This document shows positions 2,979 through 20,884 of a stretch of DNA of 64,000 nt, piece by piece. This stretch comes from an uncultured bacterium (GTDB lineage Bacteria; Patescibacteriota; Minisyncoccia; UBA6257; 2-01-FULL-56-20): contig CAWHOC010000018.1 in assembly GCA_963830935.1 (NCBI GenBank), positions 3,402-67,401 of the forward strand, in the 5' to 3' direction. The first letter of the stretch is position 1; every line of letters starts with the position of its first letter. The notes beneath the pieces are model-generated. The model had not been told where the DNA came from. It worked only from the letters and a program-made list of their open reading frames with translations, and ran no database searches. Both the position numbers and the translations under genes were made by a program.

Positions 2979-3941
2979 CTATTTCTTTGCTTTAATTGTA
3001 TTCAAAAGCTTCTGTACTTTCTTCAAACTCTCGTCATCAATGATAGAGATTGCGATGACCTTCGGGTCTATTTTTTTGAGCTTGGTGAGAATGGATTTCA
3101 ACTGCTTTGCGTCCACCACATCCGATTTCGTCAAAAAAGATGCTCCGGCTTTTTGAGGAGTGCCTTGCTGTACGCGCCGAGCTCGGCGCGGATCGTTTTA
3201 TAATCGGCGACCGGAGTGGGGGATTCGGCTGAGATGAAGTGGAAGAGCGTGCGCGTGCGCTCGATGTGGCGCAGGAAGCGCGTGCCAAGCCCTTTGCCCT
3301 CGGACGATCCCTCGATAAGCCCCGGGATGTCCGCCAGGATCAGTTCGTAATAGGTGCCGAGGTTCGGCTCGAGCGTGGTAAAAGCGTAATTCGCCACCTT
3401 ACTCTTAGCATTCGTGAGCTCGTTCAATAAGCTGGACTTTCCAACATTCGGTAAACCGACGAAGCCGACGTCGGCGATGAACTTCAGCTCCAGGCGGAAC
3501 TCAAACGATTCGCCAGGCAAACCGGGCTGGAATTGTTTTGGCGTGGTATTGCGCGACGAGCGGAAAAGAAAATTGCCTTTGCCACCATTGCCGCCCTTGG
3601 CGAGCAACACGCGCTCGCCGACGTGTTCGATCTCGAAGTCATCGCCCGTCGTCAGGTTGTGTGCGATCGTGCCAACCGGCACTTTCAGGATAAGGTCCCG
3701 CGGCATCGTGCCCATCGCGGAACTGGCCGCGACCATCAGCGCCGTCTGCGGCGGCGAATTCTTTTTTAAAGCGGAACTGGCCAAGCGCAGAGAGATCGGA
3801 CACTCCTTCCGCGTAAACACTGCCGCCCAAACCGCCACTCCCGCCCGCCGGTCCCAGCGACATTAAATTCTTATTAAAAGCCACGGCGCCTTTGCCGCCG
3901 TGTCCCGCTGAGATCCGAACGTTTACATCATCGATGAGCAT
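2979..3941 (-). pseudogene. obg: GTPase Obg/CgtA, two frame changes
   Basis: MLIDDVNVRISAGHGGKGAVAF..GGSGGLGGSV (Obg fold) | DLILKVPVGT..LLAKGGNGGKGN..VGLPNVGKSSLLN..DIPGLIEG | LTKSDVV... Breaks lie at the A6 run 3133-3138 and near 3700. Confidence 0.9.
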
Positions 3942-12080: not shown

Positions 12081-12150
12081 GCTAGGATATCTGAATAGAA
12101 CCAAGATAAACGCCTTCAGAGGGCGCTGTCCGACCATTAGACGATCCCCC
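12081..12150 (-). tRNA. degenerate tRNA-like sequence (Gln CUG-type anticodon arm), probably a pseudo-tRNA
   Basis: GGGGGAT-C-GTC..GAC-A-GCGCC-CTCTGAA-GGCGT has a good anticodon arm and a GGTTCTATTC T-loop-like motif. The T stem fails, the 3' acceptor (ATCCTAG) pairs only 5/7, and there is only 1 nt between the acceptor and D stems. Confidence 0.3.
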
Positions 12151-12155
12151 AAAAA

Positions 12156-16982: not shown

Positions 16983-18043
16983 ATGTTGCTCTCGCAATCG
17001 ATGCTGCTCAGTGAGGCGGTGCGGGTCACGATACTGACCACGATCTCTTTTGTTGTCGCGCTCCTCGTCACGCCGCTCTGGTTCAAATTCATCGTGAAGT
17101 ATAAGTTCGGGAAGCAGCTGCGCGACGGAGCGGCGACGCCGGTGTTCGCGGAATTGCACAAAAACAAATCGGGGACGCCGACGAGCGGCGGGCTCATCAT
17201 CTGGACGACCGTCGTCGGCATGGCGATCTTCTTTGATGTCATGAACCACATCTTCGGCGGCGTGTGGCACTATTTCAATTTCATCGATCGCGCGCAGACC
17301 TATCTGCCTATCGCCGCATTCCTTATCGCTGCGCTCCTCGGCCTGCTCGACGATTACTTGGGGTGCTCAAGCTCGGCGGTGCCTCCGGCGGGGGATTGAA
17401 GATCCGGCAGAAAGCGGTGTTCTACGCCATCATCGCGCTCATCGGCGCCTGGTGGTTCTATTTCCGCCTGGATTGGAACATCCTCCAGATCCCGTTCATC
17501 GGCAACGTGACGATCGGCTGGTGGTACATCCCGATATTCATCTTTATCATCTTCGCGGCCGCATTCAGCGCGAACGAGACGGATGGGTTGGACGGCCTGC
17601 TCGGCGGCGTATCGCTCTTTGCGTTCGTATCGCTCGCCACGGTGGCGTTCGTACTCCACAGCTATGACCTCGCGGCGTTCTGCGGCGCCGTGATCGGCGC
17701 ACTCCTCGCGTTTCTCTGGTTCAACATCTATCCCGCAAAGTTCTTCATGGGGGACACCGGCTCCATGTCGCTCGGCATCACGATCGGCGTCATCGCCATG
17801 CTCACGAACACCACGCTCATCCTGCCGTTCTTCACCGTCATCCTCGTCGTTGAATCGCTGTCCGTCATTATCCAGACGATCTCCAAAAAACTGCGTCACG
17901 GCAAAAAAATATTCCGCTCCACGCCGATCCACCATCACTTCGAAGCGCTCGGCTGGCCGGAATCCCAAGTGACGATGCGCTTCTGGATCATCAGCGCCGT
18001 CTTCTGCGCGCTCGGGCTCGTGATCTTCTTCCTCAGCCACTGA
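16983..18043 (+). pseudogene. mraY: phospho-N-acetylmuramoyl-pentapeptide transferase, one frame change
   Basis: ..GTPTSGGLI..LLGLLDDYLG | ..ANETDGLDGL..NIYPAKFFMGDTGSMSLG..PIHHHFE. Break near 17360. Confidence 0.9.
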
Positions 18044-18118
18044 TTTAGAATTTTTTAATGATTATTTGATCAAGTTTTAATGGTCATTGTGCTACGGTGA
18101 CTTCGCCAGCGGCAAAAC

Positions 18119-18190
18119 GGGCCGGTGGTGAAAGGGTATCACGGCCATGTTGCCACTTGGCAGTTCGGAGTTCGACTCTCCGCCGGTCCA
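18119..18190 (+). tRNA. tRNA-Ala-like gene with a non-canonical (8-nt or 6-nt) anticodon loop
   Basis: Acceptor GGGCCGG/CCGGTCC gives G1-C72, G2-C71, G3:U70, with A73. D arm GTGA-AAGGGTA-TCAC; T arm CGGAG-TTCGACT-CTCCG. The anticodon arm GCCAT-GTTGCCAC-TTGGC is 18 nt instead of 17, and contains both UGC and GCC. No encoded CCA. Confidence 0.6.
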
Positions 18191-18217
18191 CAAAACCACT
18201 GGCGTCGAAAACCGAAT

Positions 18218-18245
18218 TTGACATTCATAGAGCACCGAGTACTAT
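18218..18245 (+). promoter_or_regulatory. candidate promoter inside the tRNA 3' trailer
   Basis: TTGACA (18218-18223), 16 nt, TACTAT (18240-18245). Confidence 0.35.
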
Positions 18246-18251
18246 GAATAT

Positions 18252-18322
18252 CGAAGTGGCAACATGGCGTGGTGCTCTTCATCACGTAGTAATAAAAAAG
18301 GTCCGGCAACGGGTCTTTTTTA
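18252..18322 (+). ncRNA. candidate ~70-nt sRNA or structured 3' trailer carrying an antisense block to the tRNA anticodon arm
   Basis: AAGTGGCAACATGGC (18254-18268) is the exact reverse complement of 18144-18158. It is followed by a small hairpin, then a terminator: A6, GGTCCG-GCAA-CGGGTC, T6 (18294-18321). Confidence 0.3.
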
Positions 18323-18388
18323 TTTATTTTAGATTCGTCATTTTCTGCTAATTTGAGAATCTAATTCTGATGGCTTTTAATGTAATTA

Positions 18389-18397
18389 TGTTATTCT
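18389..18397 (+). promoter_or_regulatory. extended -10 box (TGtTATTCT) 5 nt upstream of ATG 18403
   Basis: TGTTATTCT followed by aaacc, then ATG. Confidence 0.4.
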
Positions 18398-18402
18398 AAA
18401 CC

Positions 18403-18912
18403 ATGAGTAATCCCCAAATTTTTAAAGCTGATCCAAAAGCAGTAGATGCTGGCAAGGTTCTACAAAGCCTAACACTTTTGAGTTCGCTACCTGGCCGCCA
18501 TCCAACATCGAGCTTGGGAACCTTTGAGGGAAAAACGAAAAATACGAATGATCGTATTGCATTTGAGGATGATCAAGTAAGTGTTTACGAAGATCATCTT
18601 GAGCAAAAACATGGGACGGTAATAAGTGATATCTATTTCAAAGATATTACGGGCGTCGAGGTTTTGAGGACGCCCAAGGAGAAAGTAATTATGTATATCA
18701 CTATCAATTCAAAAAGCGGAGTGAATGTAGTCGCAGGTCTTGAAAAGATGGATGCAATTATGGCAATTATTGCTGGGCATATTGATCAGGGCTTTATCAA
18801 GGAAAGCACCATGGGAACTGCTTGGATTGCCAACTCTAAAAAGCTGACATTCTTTTTTGTCGTTGTCGTAATCGTATTGATTATAGTGATTGCTTTTAAC
18901 CTGAATAGATAA
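18403..18912 (+). CDS. hypothetical protein with a C-terminal TM anchor (AT-rich gene)
   Basis: 169-aa ORF with C-terminal FFFVVVVIVLIIVIAF. Composition is clearly more AT-rich than its neighbours. No family recognised. Confidence 0.45.
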   Translation: MSNPQIFKADPKAVDAGKVLQSLTLLSSLPGRHPTSSLGTFEGKTKNTNDRIAFEDDQVSVYEDHLEQKHGTVISDIYFKDITGVEVLRTPKEKVIMYITINSKSGVNVVAGLEKMDAIMAIIAGHIDQGFIKESTMGTAWIANSKKLTFFFVVVVIVLIIVIAFNLNR

Positions 18913-18970
18913 TTTGTTGGACCATCGTCTCATTCTACCCAACATTAAGTGGAGTGGTTAAATAAAGTGT

Positions 18971-19093
18971 GCGCCTCTGCTCCGCGCATACCCTTGAAGG
19001 GCGTCTCGGAGCCGCGAAGGCGGCGAGAGCCGAGGCGGCCGGTCAGCAGAACGGAACGCCGTACCTTCAAGGGTATGCGCGGAGCAGAGGCGC
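18971..19093. repeat. 123-nt GC-rich hairpin with perfect 30-bp inverted repeat arms
   Basis: GCGCCTCTGCTCCGCGCATACCCTTGAAGG (18971-19000) is exactly complementary to 19064-19093. The 63-nt interior contains nested hairpins: CTCGG..CCGAG enclosing GCCGC-GAAG-GCGGC. Confidence 0.9.
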
Positions 19094-19102
19094 CTATCTT
19101 AT

Positions 19103-19130
19103 TTGACTATCCGCGCGCGTTTGCTATACT
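19103..19130 (+). promoter_or_regulatory. rpsB promoter (leaderless)
   Basis: TTGACT, 16 nt, TATACT, 7 nt, then ATG at 19138. Confidence 0.55.
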
Positions 19131-19137
19131 TTCTCCT

Positions 19138-19938
19138 ATGCCCGAAGACACGGTAGTATCGATGCAAAACAACCAGACGTCCGGATATCCGGCGGAGGGG
19201 TCCCGCGAAATGATGGATGCGGGTGTTTTTTATGGCCGCAAAAAGAGCAAGACGAATCCGAAGATGCGGCCGTATGTGCTCGCGAATCGCGGCGGGATCG
19301 AGATCATTAACCTTCAGAAAACAGAAGAGATGATGGATACCGCGGCGGCATTTATCAAGGAGCGCGTGCGCAATAACGGACTGGTGTTGCTCGTCGGCAC
19401 CGAACCGGCGGCGGAGTTCTCGCTTACCGCGCTCGCAAAAAAGTTGAATCTCCCGTACGTCACGACCCGCTGGGTTGGCGGCGCGATCACAAACTTCAAG
19501 ATCATCGCCAAGCGCGTGGAACATCTGAAGCAGCTCCGCGCGGACCTCGCCTCCGGCGCACTCGTCAGCAAGTATACGAAGAAAGAACGTTTGGAAATGG
19601 AGCGTGAGATGAAGCGCCTGGAAGAGTTGATGGGCGGACTGGAGCTGATGACGAAAGAGCCGGACGTCGTGGTCATCGTCGATCCGATCCTACATCACAC
19701 CGCGCTCAGCGAAGCAAACACAAAGAAGATCCCGGTGGTCGCGCTCGCGAACGTGGATGCGGATCCGGACAAGATCGCGTATATCGTGCCGGGGAACGAC
19801 AAGGCGAAAAAGAGCATCGATTGGTTCCTGGAGCGCGTTGGCAAAGCATACGAAGAGGGAGTGAAGATGCGCGCGGTGGTGGCACCTGCCGCCCCGGCGG
19901 AAGCGGCAGCCGCTCCGGCACCGAAGACGGAAAAATAA
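19138..19938 (+). CDS. rpsB: 30S ribosomal protein S2
   Basis: MMDAGVFYGRKKSKTNPKM..GIEIINLQKT..LLVGTEP..RWVGGAITNF..VVIVDP..EANTKKIPVVALANVDADP. Ala/Pro-rich tail. Confidence 0.9.
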   Translation: MPEDTVVSMQNNQTSGYPAEGSREMMDAGVFYGRKKSKTNPKMRPYVLANRGGIEIINLQKTEEMMDTAAAFIKERVRNNGLVLLVGTEPAAEFSLTALAKKLNLPYVTTRWVGGAITNFKIIAKRVEHLKQLRADLASGALVSKYTKKERLEMEREMKRLEELMGGLELMTKEPDVVVIVDPILHHTALSEANTKKIPVVALANVDADPDKIAYIVPGNDKAKKSIDWFLERVGKAYEEGVKMRAVVAPAAPAEAAAAPAPKTEK

Positions 19939-20797: not shown

Positions 20798-20884
20798 GCG
20801 TCGGTGGCAGAGCGGTCAAATGCTCGAGACTGTAAATCTCGCGCCCTATGGGCTACGCAGGTTCGAATCCTGCCCGGCGCACCA
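20798..20884 (+). tRNA. tRNA-Tyr (GTA), long variable arm, encoded CCA
   Basis: Acceptor GCGTCGG/CCGGCGC, anticodon arm CGAGA-CTGTAAA-TCTCG, variable arm CGCCCTATGGGCTAC, T arm GCAGG-TTCGAAT-CCTGC, ACCA end. Confidence 0.95.

What the first reader, a model, noticed from the sequence alone, without database searches (positions are those of the whole stretch)
18191..18325. 3' trailer of the tRNA carries a perfect 15-nt antisense copy of its anticodon stem-loop, with its own candidate promoter and terminator
Seen: AAGTGGCAACATGGC (18254-18268) is the exact reverse complement of GCCATGTTGCCACTT (18144-18158), which is the 5' stem strand, the loop and the first 2 nt of the 3' strand of the tRNA anticodon arm. 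A 15-nt perfect match within about 130 nt is very unlikely by chance. Between the two copies lie two hairpins (18203-18221, and ATTCATAG..CTATGAAT at about 18224-18249) and a TTGACA-16-TACTAT promoter-like pair. That promoter would start an RNA right at the antisense block. A strong terminator (A6, hairpin, T6) ends it at about 18322. The tRNA is also bracketed by GCCAGCGG (18105-18112) and CCACTGGC (18197-18204), which pair at 7 of 8 positions. Inference: either a cis trailer that sequesters the pre-tRNA anticodon arm, or a ~70-nt sRNA targeting that tRNA. tRNA spacer/sRNA pairing has precedent in E. coli 3'ETS-leuZ, but antisense directed at an anticodon arm is not something I know to be described.
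Basis: partly seen in the sequence, partly recalled or inferred. Interest (0 to 1): 0.6.

Follow-up and report, generated by a model that had tools for sequence, protein, structure and literature searches.

The report
tRNA mimic with its own antisense RNA
A small group of ultra-small (Parcubacteria) bacteria carries a roughly 290-base non-coding locus in which a tRNA-shaped RNA that cannot decode is followed, on the same strand, by a short RNA segment that has co-evolved to base-pair with its "anticodon" arm; this pairing matches no described RNA family and its function is unknown.

Summary
18144-18158 is the exact reverse complement of 18254-18268. With G-U pairs, about 30 bp link tRNA-like positions 8-41 to the downstream block plus hairpin H3.

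I found the locus in 17 distinct sequences from Parcubacteria MAGs and metagenomes. They carry 14 different arm sequences, each matched by its own antisense block. In the 15-bp helix, 97.5% of cells are paired, 9 of 15 pairs show two-sided changes, and 0 of 500 shuffles do as well.

The "tRNA" is not a canonical tRNA:
- Rfam's tRNA model does not hit it.
- ARAGORN calls a 2- or 4-nt anticodon in 16 of 17.
- The arm is always 18 nt with a 6-nt variable loop.
- The acceptor, D and T arms are tRNA-like, and G3·U70 is invariant (alanine-type identity).

TTGACA-16-TAYYAT is conserved, the antisense block starts 4-9 nt after it, and a terminator follows. This fits a ~70-nt sRNA.

Best reading (inferred): a tRNA mimic plus a dedicated antisense RNA that switches it from the tRNA fold to an extended duplex. 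The locus is sporadic, sits in at least three genomic contexts and has one decayed copy. Function is unknown and expression is untested.

The parts
18075..18098 (+). Upstream promoter-like region P1: conserved TTTTAAT (18075-18081), about 9-10 nt, then an extended -10 TG-n-TACGGT (18090-18098).
   Evidence: Conserved in all homologues that have upstream sequence, in both the mraY and rpsF contexts. T1, A2 and T6 of the hexamer are invariant. The same motif precedes ssb in L116. Function as a promoter is inferred.
18105..18112 (+). Leader strand of the leader/trailer helix (GCCAGCGG).
   Evidence: Pairs with 18197-18204. A leader/trailer helix is predicted in every one of the 15 homologues that include a leader, with unrelated sequences in the two subfamilies (A: GCCAGCGG/CCACTGGC; B: (CGG)TCAATG/CATTGA..(CCG)).
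18119..18190 (+). tRNA-like RNA. Acceptor stem 18119-18125/18183-18189 with G3·U70. D arm 18128-18142. Non-canonical 18-nt 'anticodon' arm 18144-18161. Variable region AGTT. T arm 18166-18182. Discriminator A18190. No encoded CCA in the window (CAA follows).
   Evidence: ARAGORN calls tRNA-??? with a 2-nt anticodon. Rfam tRNA gives no hit at E<=10; the only hit is the mascRNA tRNA-like model at 22.5 bits. Acceptor stem is 98% paired with 3 covarying pairs and G·U at 3:70 in 16/16. T stem is 100% paired. D stem is invariant.
18144..18158 (+). Sense strand of the long-range helix: 5' strand, 6-nt loop and 2 nt of the 3' strand of the arm.
   Evidence: Exact reverse complement of 18254-18268. 15 pairs, 97.5% of cells paired, 9 pairs with two-sided changes, 0/500 shuffles as good. 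13-18 contiguous bp in 14 of 16 homologues.
18197..18204 (+). Trailer strand of the leader/trailer helix (CCACTGGC).
   Evidence: see the leader entry.
18218..18245 (+). Internal sigma-70-type promoter-like site P2: TTGACA (18218-18223), 16 nt, TACTAT (18240-18245).
   Evidence: Scan gives 10 of 12 matches. TTGACA was found in 11 of the 12 homologues the script printed before it stopped (TTGACG in L091, compensated in the palindrome). For all 16, the alignment shows TTGACA in 15 and TTGACG in L091. Spacer is 16 nt in all, -10 is TAYYAT, also in L093 where the intervening sequence differs. rpsB in the same genomes uses TTGACT-16/17-TATAMT. Activity not tested.
18223..18249 (.). Inverted repeat H2 (ATTCATAG ... 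CTATGAAT) overlapping P2.
   Evidence: 92% paired with 3 covarying pairs, but G·U versus A·C cells are 4 versus 6, so there is no strand bias. It could be an RNA hairpin in read-through transcripts or a palindromic DNA operator.
18254..18268 (+). Antisense block, the predicted 5' end (seed) of the sRNA.
   Evidence: Complement of 18144-18158. It starts 8 nt after the -10 hexamer in the window and 4-9 nt after it in 11 of the 12 homologues the script printed (11 nt in L086, which has a 1-nt deletion in the block). It is mostly unpaired in the sRNA folded alone.
18268..18286 (+). Hairpin H3 (CGTGGTG CTCTT CATCACG). It is also a degenerate antisense copy of the D arm.
   Evidence: Local hairpin 95% paired, one covarying pair, G·U 11 versus A·C 1, which points to + strand RNA. 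The alternative pairing with GGUGAAA.GGUAUC of the D arm is chosen by RNAalifold and by most single-sequence MFE folds.
18291..18324 (+). Intrinsic terminator (A-tract, GC hairpin, T-tract; potentially bidirectional).
   Evidence: Conserved with covarying stem pairs in 15 of 16 homologues.

Best explanation
This is a self-contained non-coding RNA locus of about 290 bp, found in one clade of Parcubacteria (Paceibacterota). It encodes two complementary partners in tandem on the same strand.

Partner 1 is a tRNA mimic. It has a genuine tRNA core (acceptor, D and T arms, U8/A14/A21, G18G19, TΨC-type loop), an alanine-type acceptor end (G1-C72, G2-C71, G3·U70, C4-G69 invariant; A73 in 15 of 17), and a leader/trailer helix that extends the acceptor stem. 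Its 'anticodon' arm is 18 nt with a 6-nt loop of freely varying sequence, so it cannot act as a decoder.

Partner 2 is a ~70-nt RNA made of a 15-nt single-stranded 5' seed, hairpin H3 and a terminator. It is predicted to start at a near-consensus internal promoter, and it is also present in cis in any read-through transcript from the upstream promoter.

Shown:
- The seed and the arm are kept complementary by many independent compensatory changes, on the + strand RNA.
- The acceptor stem also covaries.
- Simple helix-geometry reasoning, not a computation, suggests the tRNA fold and the full extended duplex cannot coexist: a roughly 30-bp duplex would have both ends tethered to adjacent points of the acceptor/T stack by about 8 nt.
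- The nearest-neighbour model favours the duplex by 10-27 kcal/mol.

Inferred mechanism: the antisense RNA invades the weakened arm (conserved 31:39 mismatch, 6-nt loop), zips through the D arm, and converts the mimic from an L-shaped tRNA-like molecule into a long duplex. This would inactivate it, block its processing, or mark it for a double-strand-specific nuclease. In other words, it would be a dedicated RNA-RNA control pair.

What the mimic does when free is not known. Acceptance of alanine by AlaRS is the most concrete testable guess.
For: - Exact 15-nt complement; chance about 0.017 per window.
- Homologues: 2 of 80 related GTDB loci, 16 metagenome loci and 2 more via S2 neighbours, giving 17 distinct sequences and 14 distinct arms.
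- Long-range helix: 97.5% paired, 9 of 15 pairs with two-sided changes, 0/500 shuffles, slid controls 40-48% paired. Per-sequence contiguous pairing is 13-18 bp in 14 of 16.
- Cognate arm/seed duplexes are -26 to -35 kcal/mol. Most non-cognate pairs between distant members are -6 to -20, though some non-cognate pairs reach -27 to -33.
- G·U versus A·C: 7 versus 2 in the long helix and 11 versus 1 in H3, pointing to + strand RNA.
- Acceptor stem 98% paired with 3 covarying pairs and G3·U70 in 16/16; T stem 100% paired.
- RNAalifold, run without guidance, picks a 30-bp helix between tRNA-like nt 8-41 and seed plus H3.
- The extended fold beats the cloverleaf-enforced fold by 10-27 kcal/mol (mean 18.6) in all 16. 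In trans the cofold gain is -6.5 to -24 kcal/mol.
- P2 hexamers and the 16-nt spacer are conserved, also in L093 where the intervening sequence differs. The seed starts 4-9 nt after the -10 in 11 of the 12 sequences the script printed. rpsB in the same genomes uses the same promoter type.
- The sRNA alone folds as a free 5' seed, hairpin and terminator.
- The locus occurs in an opposite-strand context between rpsF and ssb, so it must carry its own promoter and is not a leader of a neighbouring gene.
Against: - No expression data: neither promoter, neither 5' end nor the 3' end has been observed.
- P2 overlaps a covarying inverted repeat (H2), so the hexamers could be conserved for an RNA or operator role rather than as a promoter.
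- If both partners sit on one read-through transcript, a separate sRNA is not strictly needed.
- D-arm:H3 pairing has almost no covariation, because both sides are nearly invariant. In the most divergent member (L093) the H3 3' half no longer complements GGUGAAA.
- The conserved leader/trailer helix, which in subfamily B pairs with the encoded CCA, argues against a free aminoacylatable 3' end unless the RNA is processed.
- T-loop positions 54/55 vary in 4 of 17 (CTCGA, TCCGA), which is unusual for RNAs handled like tRNAs.
- Distribution is narrow and sporadic, so any function is dispensable.
Confidence: 0.5

Rival explanations
1. One-piece structured RNA or conformational switch. The whole 18103-18322 transcript is the functional unit. 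The arm:block helix is an intramolecular element, either part of one native fold or one state of a co-transcriptional or ligand/protein-driven switch between a tRNA-like and an extended fold. The 'promoter' hexamers are conserved RNA or protein-binding motifs, and no separate sRNA exists.
For: - Covariation cannot tell cis from trans pairing.
- There is no terminator between the tRNA-like part and the block, so P1 or mraY read-through transcripts contain both.
- The MFE of every full-length homologue contains the long helix.
- H2 and the leader/trailer helix covary as parts of a larger fold would.
Against: - TTGACA, the exact 16-nt spacer and TAYYAT are kept even where the intervening sequence and H2 differ (L093). 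In subfamily B, TTGACA is not part of any predicted pairing.
- The seed sits at the predicted +1 in most members.
- H2 shows no + strand G·U bias.
- The acceptor stem and the full long helix are geometrically incompatible by my helix-geometry reasoning. A single static fold would then be excluded, leaving only a switch version.
Confidence: 0.25
2. RNA-only toxin-antitoxin (addiction-type) module. The stable tRNA mimic is harmful when free, for example by titrating AlaRS, EF-Tu, RNase P or the ribosome. The short antisense RNA from the strong promoter neutralises it. This would explain the selfish-looking distribution and the paralogues with private specificities.
For: - Presence is sporadic among close relatives. 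There are empty sites, a decayed copy in L115 and at least three genomic contexts.
- One 829-kb genome lacks the locus at both sites examined.
- There are probably two copies in one MAG with mutually poor cross-pairing (L007/L088: cognate -30/-28 versus cross -11/-18 kcal/mol).
- The antisense partner has the stronger consensus promoter. The target is closed by a 5'-3' helix, as in type I toxin mRNAs (my own knowledge of hok/sok-type systems).
Against: - Nothing shows toxicity.
- No mobile-element genes are linked, and there are no hits in phage or plasmid collections.
- The locus sits among core genes.
- L084/L092 arms cross-pair well.
- Sporadic distribution is equally explained by simple loss of a dispensable RNA.
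Confidence: 0.15
3. An ordinary decoding tRNA whose 3' trailer transiently masks the anticodon arm during maturation.
For: - Cloverleaf-compatible acceptor, D and T arms.
- A leader/trailer helix, as in some pre-tRNAs.
Against: - No Rfam tRNA hit at E<=10.
- The arm is 18 nt with a 6-nt loop in 17 of 17, and ARAGORN gives 2- or 4-nt anticodons in 16 of 17.
- The loop triplet changes among close orthologues (GCC, GAC, ACC ...), which a decoder could not tolerate.
- The locus is absent from many close relatives.
Confidence: 0.04
4. A DNA-level inverted repeat with no RNA function: a remnant of an inverted partial tRNA duplication or a MITE-like element, kept complementary by gene conversion.
For: - The downstream segment looks like a degenerate antisense copy of tRNA-like nt 8-41, so an inverted duplication is a plausible origin.
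- Unrelated long hairpin elements do exist in these genomes.
Against: - 14 arm variants are each compensated, while the flanks differ by transitions that keep only + strand G·U pairing. Gene conversion would make flanks perfectly complementary and strand-symmetric.
- Promoters and terminator are conserved.
- The locus is single-copy in the window.
- No terminal inverted repeats or clear target duplications.
Confidence: 0.03

Closest known systems
Antisense-RNA control pairs (plasmid CopA/CopT, ColE1 RNA I/RNA II; type I toxin-antitoxin Sok/hok, Sib/Ibs). From my own knowledge.
   Same: A short RNA with its own strong promoter and terminator is fully complementary to a stem-loop of a partner RNA. 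The target stem-loop has a small loop and a destabilising mismatch in its upper stem. The interacting sequences diverge quickly while staying complementary. Paralogues have private specificities.
   Different: Those pairs are complementary because they are transcribed from opposite strands of the same DNA. Here both partners are on the same strand, about 100 nt apart, so complementarity must be maintained by selection on two separate sequences. The target here is a tRNA mimic, not an mRNA or a replication primer.
3'ETS-leuZ of E. coli (pre-tRNA 3' external transcribed spacer acting as an sRNA sponge).
   Same: A functional RNA segment lies in the trailer of a tRNA-type gene, and its role depends on base pairing.
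   Different: 3'ETS-leuZ pairs with unrelated trans sRNAs (RyhB, RybB) and comes from a real tRNA operon. Here the trailer pairs with its own upstream tRNA-like RNA, has its own promoter-like site, and the 'tRNA' is not a decoder.
tmRNA (SsrA) tRNA-like domain
   Same: A tRNA-like acceptor/T-arm module with G3·U70 and mostly A73, which is the AlaRS identity set. A long helix emerges where the anticodon stem would be.
   Different: There are no pseudoknots and no tag reading frame. ARAGORN finds no tmRNA and Rfam gives no tmRNA hit. The D stem is intact. The acceptor stem is formed within one contiguous 72-nt unit.
YrlA, the bacterial Y RNA with a tRNA-like domain (abstract of bioRxiv 10.1101/312249, listed)
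   Same: A close tRNA mimic that keeps the tertiary-interaction nucleotides, lacks an obviously free CCA end, and has a non-standard 'anticodon stem' that leads into another helix.
   Different: No Rfam Y RNA/YrlA hit. In YrlA the 5' and 3' ends form the Ro-binding stem at the anticodon position and the acceptor stem is closed. Here the ends extend the acceptor stem, and the anticodon-side helix is made with a downstream segment. No link to Ro/Rsr genes was seen.
Non-proteinogenic tRNAs used for cell-wall cross-bridges, and RNA toxins of type VIII toxin-antitoxin systems (CreT/CreA, SdsR/RyeA). From my own knowledge.
   Same: These are tRNA-type or small RNAs that act outside decoding. The type VIII systems give a precedent for RNA as the harmful partner, neutralised through RNA pairing.
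   Different: Non-proteinogenic tRNAs keep a normal anticodon arm. No Fem-type transferase link was tested. Toxicity was not tested. The neighbouring mraY and dacC genes accompany only one of the three contexts.

Membership tests
Canonical tRNA (Rfam RF00005) | Cloverleaf with acceptor, D and T arms and the conserved tertiary nucleotides (U8, A14, G18G19, A21, T54Ψ55C56, A58). | tested here: met
   Acceptor stem 98% paired, T stem 100% paired, D stem invariant. TGGTGAAA.GGTATCAC and TTCGAYT are conserved. However, positions 54/55 vary in 4 of 17.
Canonical tRNA (Rfam RF00005) | 5-bp anticodon stem with a 7-nt loop and an anticodon conserved among orthologues. | tested here: not met
   The arm is 18 nt in 17 of 17. 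Pair 31:39 is mismatched in 11 of 16. The loop is 6 nt (YYRMCA) and variable. ARAGORN calls a 2- or 4-nt anticodon in 16 of 17.
Canonical tRNA (Rfam RF00005) | Scores above the family threshold with the tRNA covariance model. | tested here: not met
   No RF00005 hit at gathering score or at E<=10 on 18000-18420. tRNA-Tyr at 20798 scores 58 bits in the same run.
tmRNA | tRNA-like domain with G3·U70 and an A73-CCA end. | tested here: inconclusive
   G3·U70 in 16/16. A73 in 15 of 17. CCA encoded in 7 of 17 and paired with the leader.
tmRNA | Tag reading frame, pseudoknots, and detection by tmRNA models (including permuted forms). | tested here: not met
   ARAGORN finds 0 tmRNA in the window and in 17 elements. 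No Rfam tmRNA hit. No conserved ORF: the ATG at 18264 is absent in homologues, and indels are not multiples of 3.
Alanine-accepting RNA (AlaRS substrate) | G3·U70 wobble pair in a 7-bp acceptor stem, A73, and a free single-stranded 3' CCA. | tested here: inconclusive
   The sequence determinants are present. A free CCA end would require processing that cannot be assessed. The leader/trailer helix covers the 3' side. Charging is not testable with these tools.
Trans-acting antisense sRNA with a dedicated target | Extended complementarity to the target, maintained in evolution. | tested here: met
Trans-acting antisense sRNA with a dedicated target | Own promoter and intrinsic terminator that define a discrete small transcript. 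| tested here: inconclusive
   Consensus-like, conserved P2 and terminator, with the seed at the predicted +1. No transcript data.
3'ETS-type pre-tRNA spacer sponge | A spacer excised from a genuine tRNA precursor that pairs with independently encoded sRNAs. | tested here: not met
   The upstream gene is not a genuine tRNA. The spacer's covarying partner is its own upstream arm. The seed varies too fast to serve conserved external partners.
YrlA / bacterial Y RNA | Match to the Rfam Y RNA/YrlA models; a Ro-binding stem formed by the RNA termini. | tested here: not met
   No hit at E<=10. The termini here extend the acceptor stem. A Ro/Rsr gene was not searched for genome-wide.
Toxin-antitoxin-like (type I / type VIII) RNA module | Sporadic, multi-context distribution with decayed copies and paralogue-specific pairing. 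| tested here: met
Toxin-antitoxin-like (type I / type VIII) RNA module | One partner is toxic when the other is absent; the two differ in stability. | not testable with these tools
   Needs expression experiments.

The most novel reading that the evidence does not exclude
An RNA-only two-component module. A non-decoding, alanine-identity tRNA mimic has its activity gated by a dedicated, rapidly co-evolving antisense RNA encoded just downstream on the same strand. It behaves as a dispensable, duplicating and possibly addictive (type VIII-like toxin-antitoxin) element, and paralogous copies in one genome keep private 'address' sequences.
Probability: 0.2. Interest if true: 0.85.

Novelty: new variant of a known kind. 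Interest (0 to 1): 0.64.

Why it matters
tRNA mimics (tmRNA, Y RNAs, viral tRNA-like structures) and antisense RNA pairs are each well known. I found no described case, in Rfam 15 or in the literature searches I ran, of a tRNA mimic that carries its own same-strand, co-evolving antisense partner able to unfold it.

If the model holds, three things follow:
- It would give a compact natural example of an RNA whose tRNA-like shape is switched off by a private RNA key.
- It would offer a lead into RNA-based regulation, or RNA-based selfish elements, in the poorly understood ultra-small Patescibacteria.
- The 14 natural arm/seed variants would be a ready-made set of candidate orthogonal RNA-RNA pairs.

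The invariant G3·U70 makes one function directly testable: charging by AlaRS.

If it turns out to be only a dispensable structured RNA of one clade, it is still a new RNA family with unusually clear covariation.

Tried and rejected
- **Known RNA family.** Rfam at gathering thresholds over the whole window and at E<=10 over 18000-18420 gave nothing except a weak mascRNA (tRNA-like) match.
- **Phage or plasmid origin.** No matches in viral contigs, phage records (one insignificant 42-nt hit) or plasmids.
- **Protein-coding.** The ORF 18097-18351 (84 aa) is not conserved. Homologues differ by indels that break the frame.
- **Leader or attenuator of rpsB.** Rejected. The element ends in a strong terminator, rpsB has its own promoter and appears leaderless, and the element also occurs on the opposite strand between rpsF and ssb.
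- **Functional link to the downstream ORF 18403-18912.** Rejected. The ORF has no Pfam hit and is absent next to the element in relatives.
- **An extra closing helix between the 5' region (18088-18091) and 18285-18288**, suggested by a column-pair scan. Rejected on inspection as spurious.
- **MITE-like transposition.** No terminal inverted repeats. The left end TTTAAC and the right flank TTTGAC are similar 6-mers, but I could not call a target duplication.
- **Second copy in the window or in the other 78 GTDB loci.** None found.
- **Universal presence in the clade.** Rejected. Many empty mraY|rpsB sites, and one 829-kb genome lacks it at both sites examined.
- **Literature.** Four full-text searches returned results (tRNA-like with Parcubacteria, candidate phyla radiation, antisense/anticodon stem/AlaRS, Patescibacteria noncoding RNA) and found nothing matching. 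A fifth search errored on a term.
Full report
**1. The observation.** GCCATGTTGCCACTT (18144-18158) and AAGTGGCAACATGGC (18254-18268) are exact reverse complements. The repeat finder extends this to 28 nt at 79% complementarity. In 60 simulated 64-kb first-order Markov (dinucleotide-frequency-matched) sequences, a perfect 15-nt inverted repeat within 300 nt occurred once (mean 0.017). The other listed features are also present:
- TTGACA-16-TACTAT at 18218-18245 and the terminator at 18291-18324.
- The ATTCATAG/CTATGAAT hairpin.
- The GCCAGCGG/CCACTGGC bracket.

The + strand RNA 18095-18330 folds to -108 kcal/mol (z = -9.3). The minus strand gives -89 kcal/mol (z = -5.9). In that fold the pairing is far larger than 15 nt. 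It runs from the D arm through the 'anticodon' arm (18133-18158) against 18254-18278.

**2. The 'tRNA' is not a normal tRNA.** ARAGORN reports tRNA-??? with a 2-nt anticodon. Rfam's tRNA model does not hit at its threshold or at E<=10; only the mascRNA tRNA-like model matches weakly. By eye, and then by alignment, the molecule has:
- a 7-bp acceptor stem with G3·U70 and A73;
- a 4-bp D stem with A14, A15, G18G19 and A21;
- a 4-nt variable region ending in U48;
- a standard T arm.

The arm between them is 18 nt: a 6-bp stem with an internal mismatch and a 6-nt loop.

**3. Organism and neighbourhood.** Flanking genes are dnaX, scpA, scpB, a D-Ala-D-Ala carboxypeptidase and mraY upstream, and rpsB and tsf downstream. 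MraY relatives are Parcubacteria/Paceibacterota MAGs, and the dacC-mraY-rpsB-tsf order is conserved.

**4. Relatives of the element.**
- Of the 80 closest GTDB loci, only L002 and L007 carry it, at the same place.
- A pattern scan of metagenome contigs found 16 more loci. None were found in viral contigs.
- Neighbourhoods of S2 homologues added L102 and L114, plus a decayed copy, L115.
- In total there are 17 distinct sequences with 14 different arm sequences.
- ARAGORN sees a tRNA shape in 17 of 17 but a 2- or 4-nt anticodon in 16.

**5. Covariation.** On the 16-sequence alignment A2:
- The 15-bp arm:block helix has 97.5% of cells paired. Nine pairs have changes on both sides. No shuffle of 500 reached the observed scores, and slid controls gave 40-48% pairing.
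- Each homologue has 13-18 contiguous pairs. The exceptions are L086 (a 1-nt deletion) and L092 (two mismatches). L102 adds another compensated change.
- The acceptor stem is 98% paired, with pairs 5-7 covarying and G·U at 3:70 in 16/16. The T stem is 100% paired with one covarying pair.
- The local arm hairpin is weaker (84% paired). Pair 31:39 is mismatched in 11 of 16, but its loop-closing pair covaries in 16/16.
- A leader/trailer helix is predicted in all 15 homologues that include a leader, with unrelated sequences in the two subfamilies.
- H3 and the terminator stem also covary.
- G·U versus A·C counts are 7:2 for the long helix and 11:1 for H3, so selection acts on + strand RNA. For H2 the count is 4:6, so H2 may equally be a DNA palindrome.

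**6. Two incompatible folds.**
- RNAalifold, run without guidance, chooses a 30-bp helix joining tRNA-like nt 8-41 to the block plus H3. Most single-sequence MFE folds do the same.
- H3 is in effect a degenerate antisense copy of the D arm. Its differences are transitions that keep G·U pairing.
- My helix-geometry estimate (reasoning, not a computation) is that a roughly 30-bp duplex, tethered at both ends to adjacent points of the acceptor/T stack by about 8 nt, cannot coexist with the covariation-supported acceptor stem. The RNA would then have two alternative states.
- The extended state is favoured by 10-27 kcal/mol (mean 18.6) over a cloverleaf-enforced fold in all 16 homologues. As two molecules, the cofold gain is -6.5 to -24 kcal/mol.

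**7. One RNA or two?**
- The internal TTGACA, 16-nt spacer and TAYYAT are conserved across the family, also in L093 where the sequence between the hexamers differs. L091 has TTGACG in place of TTGACA. The script printed 12 of the 16 before it stopped; the rest were read from the alignment.
- In subfamily B, TTGACA is not part of any predicted pairing.
- The antisense block begins 4-9 nt after the -10 in 11 of the 12 sequences printed (mostly 7-9; 11 nt in L086).
- rpsB in the same genomes is driven by TTGACT-16/17-TATAMT placed 7 nt before its ATG. This promoter type is therefore in use.
- The predicted ~70-nt product folds as a free 5' seed, hairpin, A-rich linker and terminator.

I therefore favour a separate sRNA. 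Any transcript from the upstream promoter-like region (TTTTAAT ... TG-n-TAnnnT, conserved in both contexts; the same motif precedes ssb in L116) would also carry the block in cis. None of this has been seen as RNA.

**8. Distribution.**
- The element lies between mraY and rpsB on the same strand in the window, L002, L007, L081, L085, L086, L089, L092, L094, L102 and L114.
- It lies between rpsF and ssb on the opposite strand in L083, L084, L088, L090 and L095.
- It lies next to a deaminase gene in L091.
- Many close relatives have an empty mraY|rpsB junction holding only the rpsB promoter.
- L115 keeps only the promoter, the leader and the 5' third of the mimic, fused to the terminator's 3' half.
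- One 829-kb genome lacks the element at both sites examined.
- L007 (439-kb contig) and L088 (460-kb contig) come from one metagenome, and both are in NCBI as TPA Paceibacterota contigs. They are probably one ~0.9-Mb genome with two copies. Their arms cross-pair poorly: cognate -30/-28 versus cross -11/-18 kcal/mol.
- L084-type and L092-type copies co-occur in two metagenomes, and those two do cross-pair.

**9. Interpretation.**
- *Shown:* a conserved non-coding locus with a tRNA-shaped RNA that cannot be a decoder, and a downstream same-strand segment kept complementary to its arm by selection at the RNA level.
- *Inferred:* the segment is made as a ~70-nt sRNA and is also present in cis. 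It converts the mimic from its tRNA fold into an extended duplex, so it acts as a dedicated negative regulator or a processing/decay trigger.
- *Speculative:* the free mimic is recognised by AlaRS (invariant G1-C72, G2-C71, G3·U70, C4-G69; A73 in 15 of 17). Against easy charging are the leader/trailer helix covering the 3' side, and the CCA being encoded in only 7 of 17.

The sporadic, multi-context distribution with decay and private specificities resembles toxin-antitoxin RNA modules, but toxicity is untested.

**10. Comparison with known systems.** The closest analogues in how it works are antisense RNA control pairs. The differences are that both partners here are on one strand and the target is a tRNA mimic. 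It is not a member of the tRNA, tmRNA, Y RNA/YrlA or 3'ETS-sponge families, because defining features of each were tested and not met (see the membership table). Rfam 15 and the literature searches gave no description of it.

**11. Verdict.** The finding is real and more substantial than reported. The mechanism is plausible but unproven, and the distribution is narrow. I score interest 0.64 and rate it a new variant of known kinds (tRNA mimic plus antisense RNA).

Noticed in passing
window 18957-19107 (arms 18957-19000 / 19064-19107); also L116 about 3445-3570 and L101 upstream of rpsB: A long GC-rich inverted repeat (44-nt arms, 89% complementary, ~30-nt perfect core, 63-nt interior) lies between the low-GC ORF and the rpsB promoter. 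Its interior shares GGAGCCGCGAAGGCGGCGAG with a similar perfect hairpin between rpsF and ssb in L116. L101 shares a different stretch of the window's interior and 3' arm (around CCGGAACGCCGT...). This looks like a dispersed hairpin or MITE-like repeat family of these genomes.
   Followed up: partly
window 19103-19140; L007, L092, L098, L103, L104, L106: rpsB appears to be leaderless. TTGACT-16/17-TATAMT is followed after exactly 7 nt by the ATG (19138 in the window). In relatives without the element, this promoter starts within a few bases of the mraY stop codon.
   Followed up: partly
window 12081-12151 (minus strand): ARAGORN calls tRNA-Gln(CUG). Only the 5' half (acceptor strand, D arm, anticodon arm) looks right. 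There is no convincing T arm or 3' acceptor strand, and Rfam's tRNA model does not hit it. It may be a truncated tRNA remnant.
   Followed up: no
window 16983-18043: mraY is split between two reading frames (16983-17399 and 17264-18043). Relatives have one intact 350-355-aa MraY. This is a frameshift, either a pseudogene or an assembly error.
   Followed up: no
window 18330-18950: A low-GC stretch (42% against about 55-58% around it) holds an ORF of 169 aa (18403-18912) with no Pfam hit. It is absent from the mraY-rpsB spacer of relatives, so it is likely a recent insertion.
   Followed up: partly
L115 1789-1900: A decayed copy of the element. The promoter region, the leader and the tRNA-like 5' part up to the D arm are fused directly to the 3' half of the terminator (CGGGTCTTTTTTATTTA). 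This shows loss by internal deletion.
   Followed up: yes
L116 about 3590-3625; element P1 regions in all loci: The motif AGTTTTAAT-N10-TGCTAGAAT precedes ssb in a genome without the element and resembles the element's upstream region. It may be a second common promoter type (AT-rich upstream box plus extended -10) in these bacteria.
   Followed up: no
L097 873-2246: In one relative the region upstream of rpsB carries IS-type genes (Y1 transposase, HTH_Tnp_1, rve integrase) instead of mraY. This junction is therefore a site of rearrangement.
   Followed up: no
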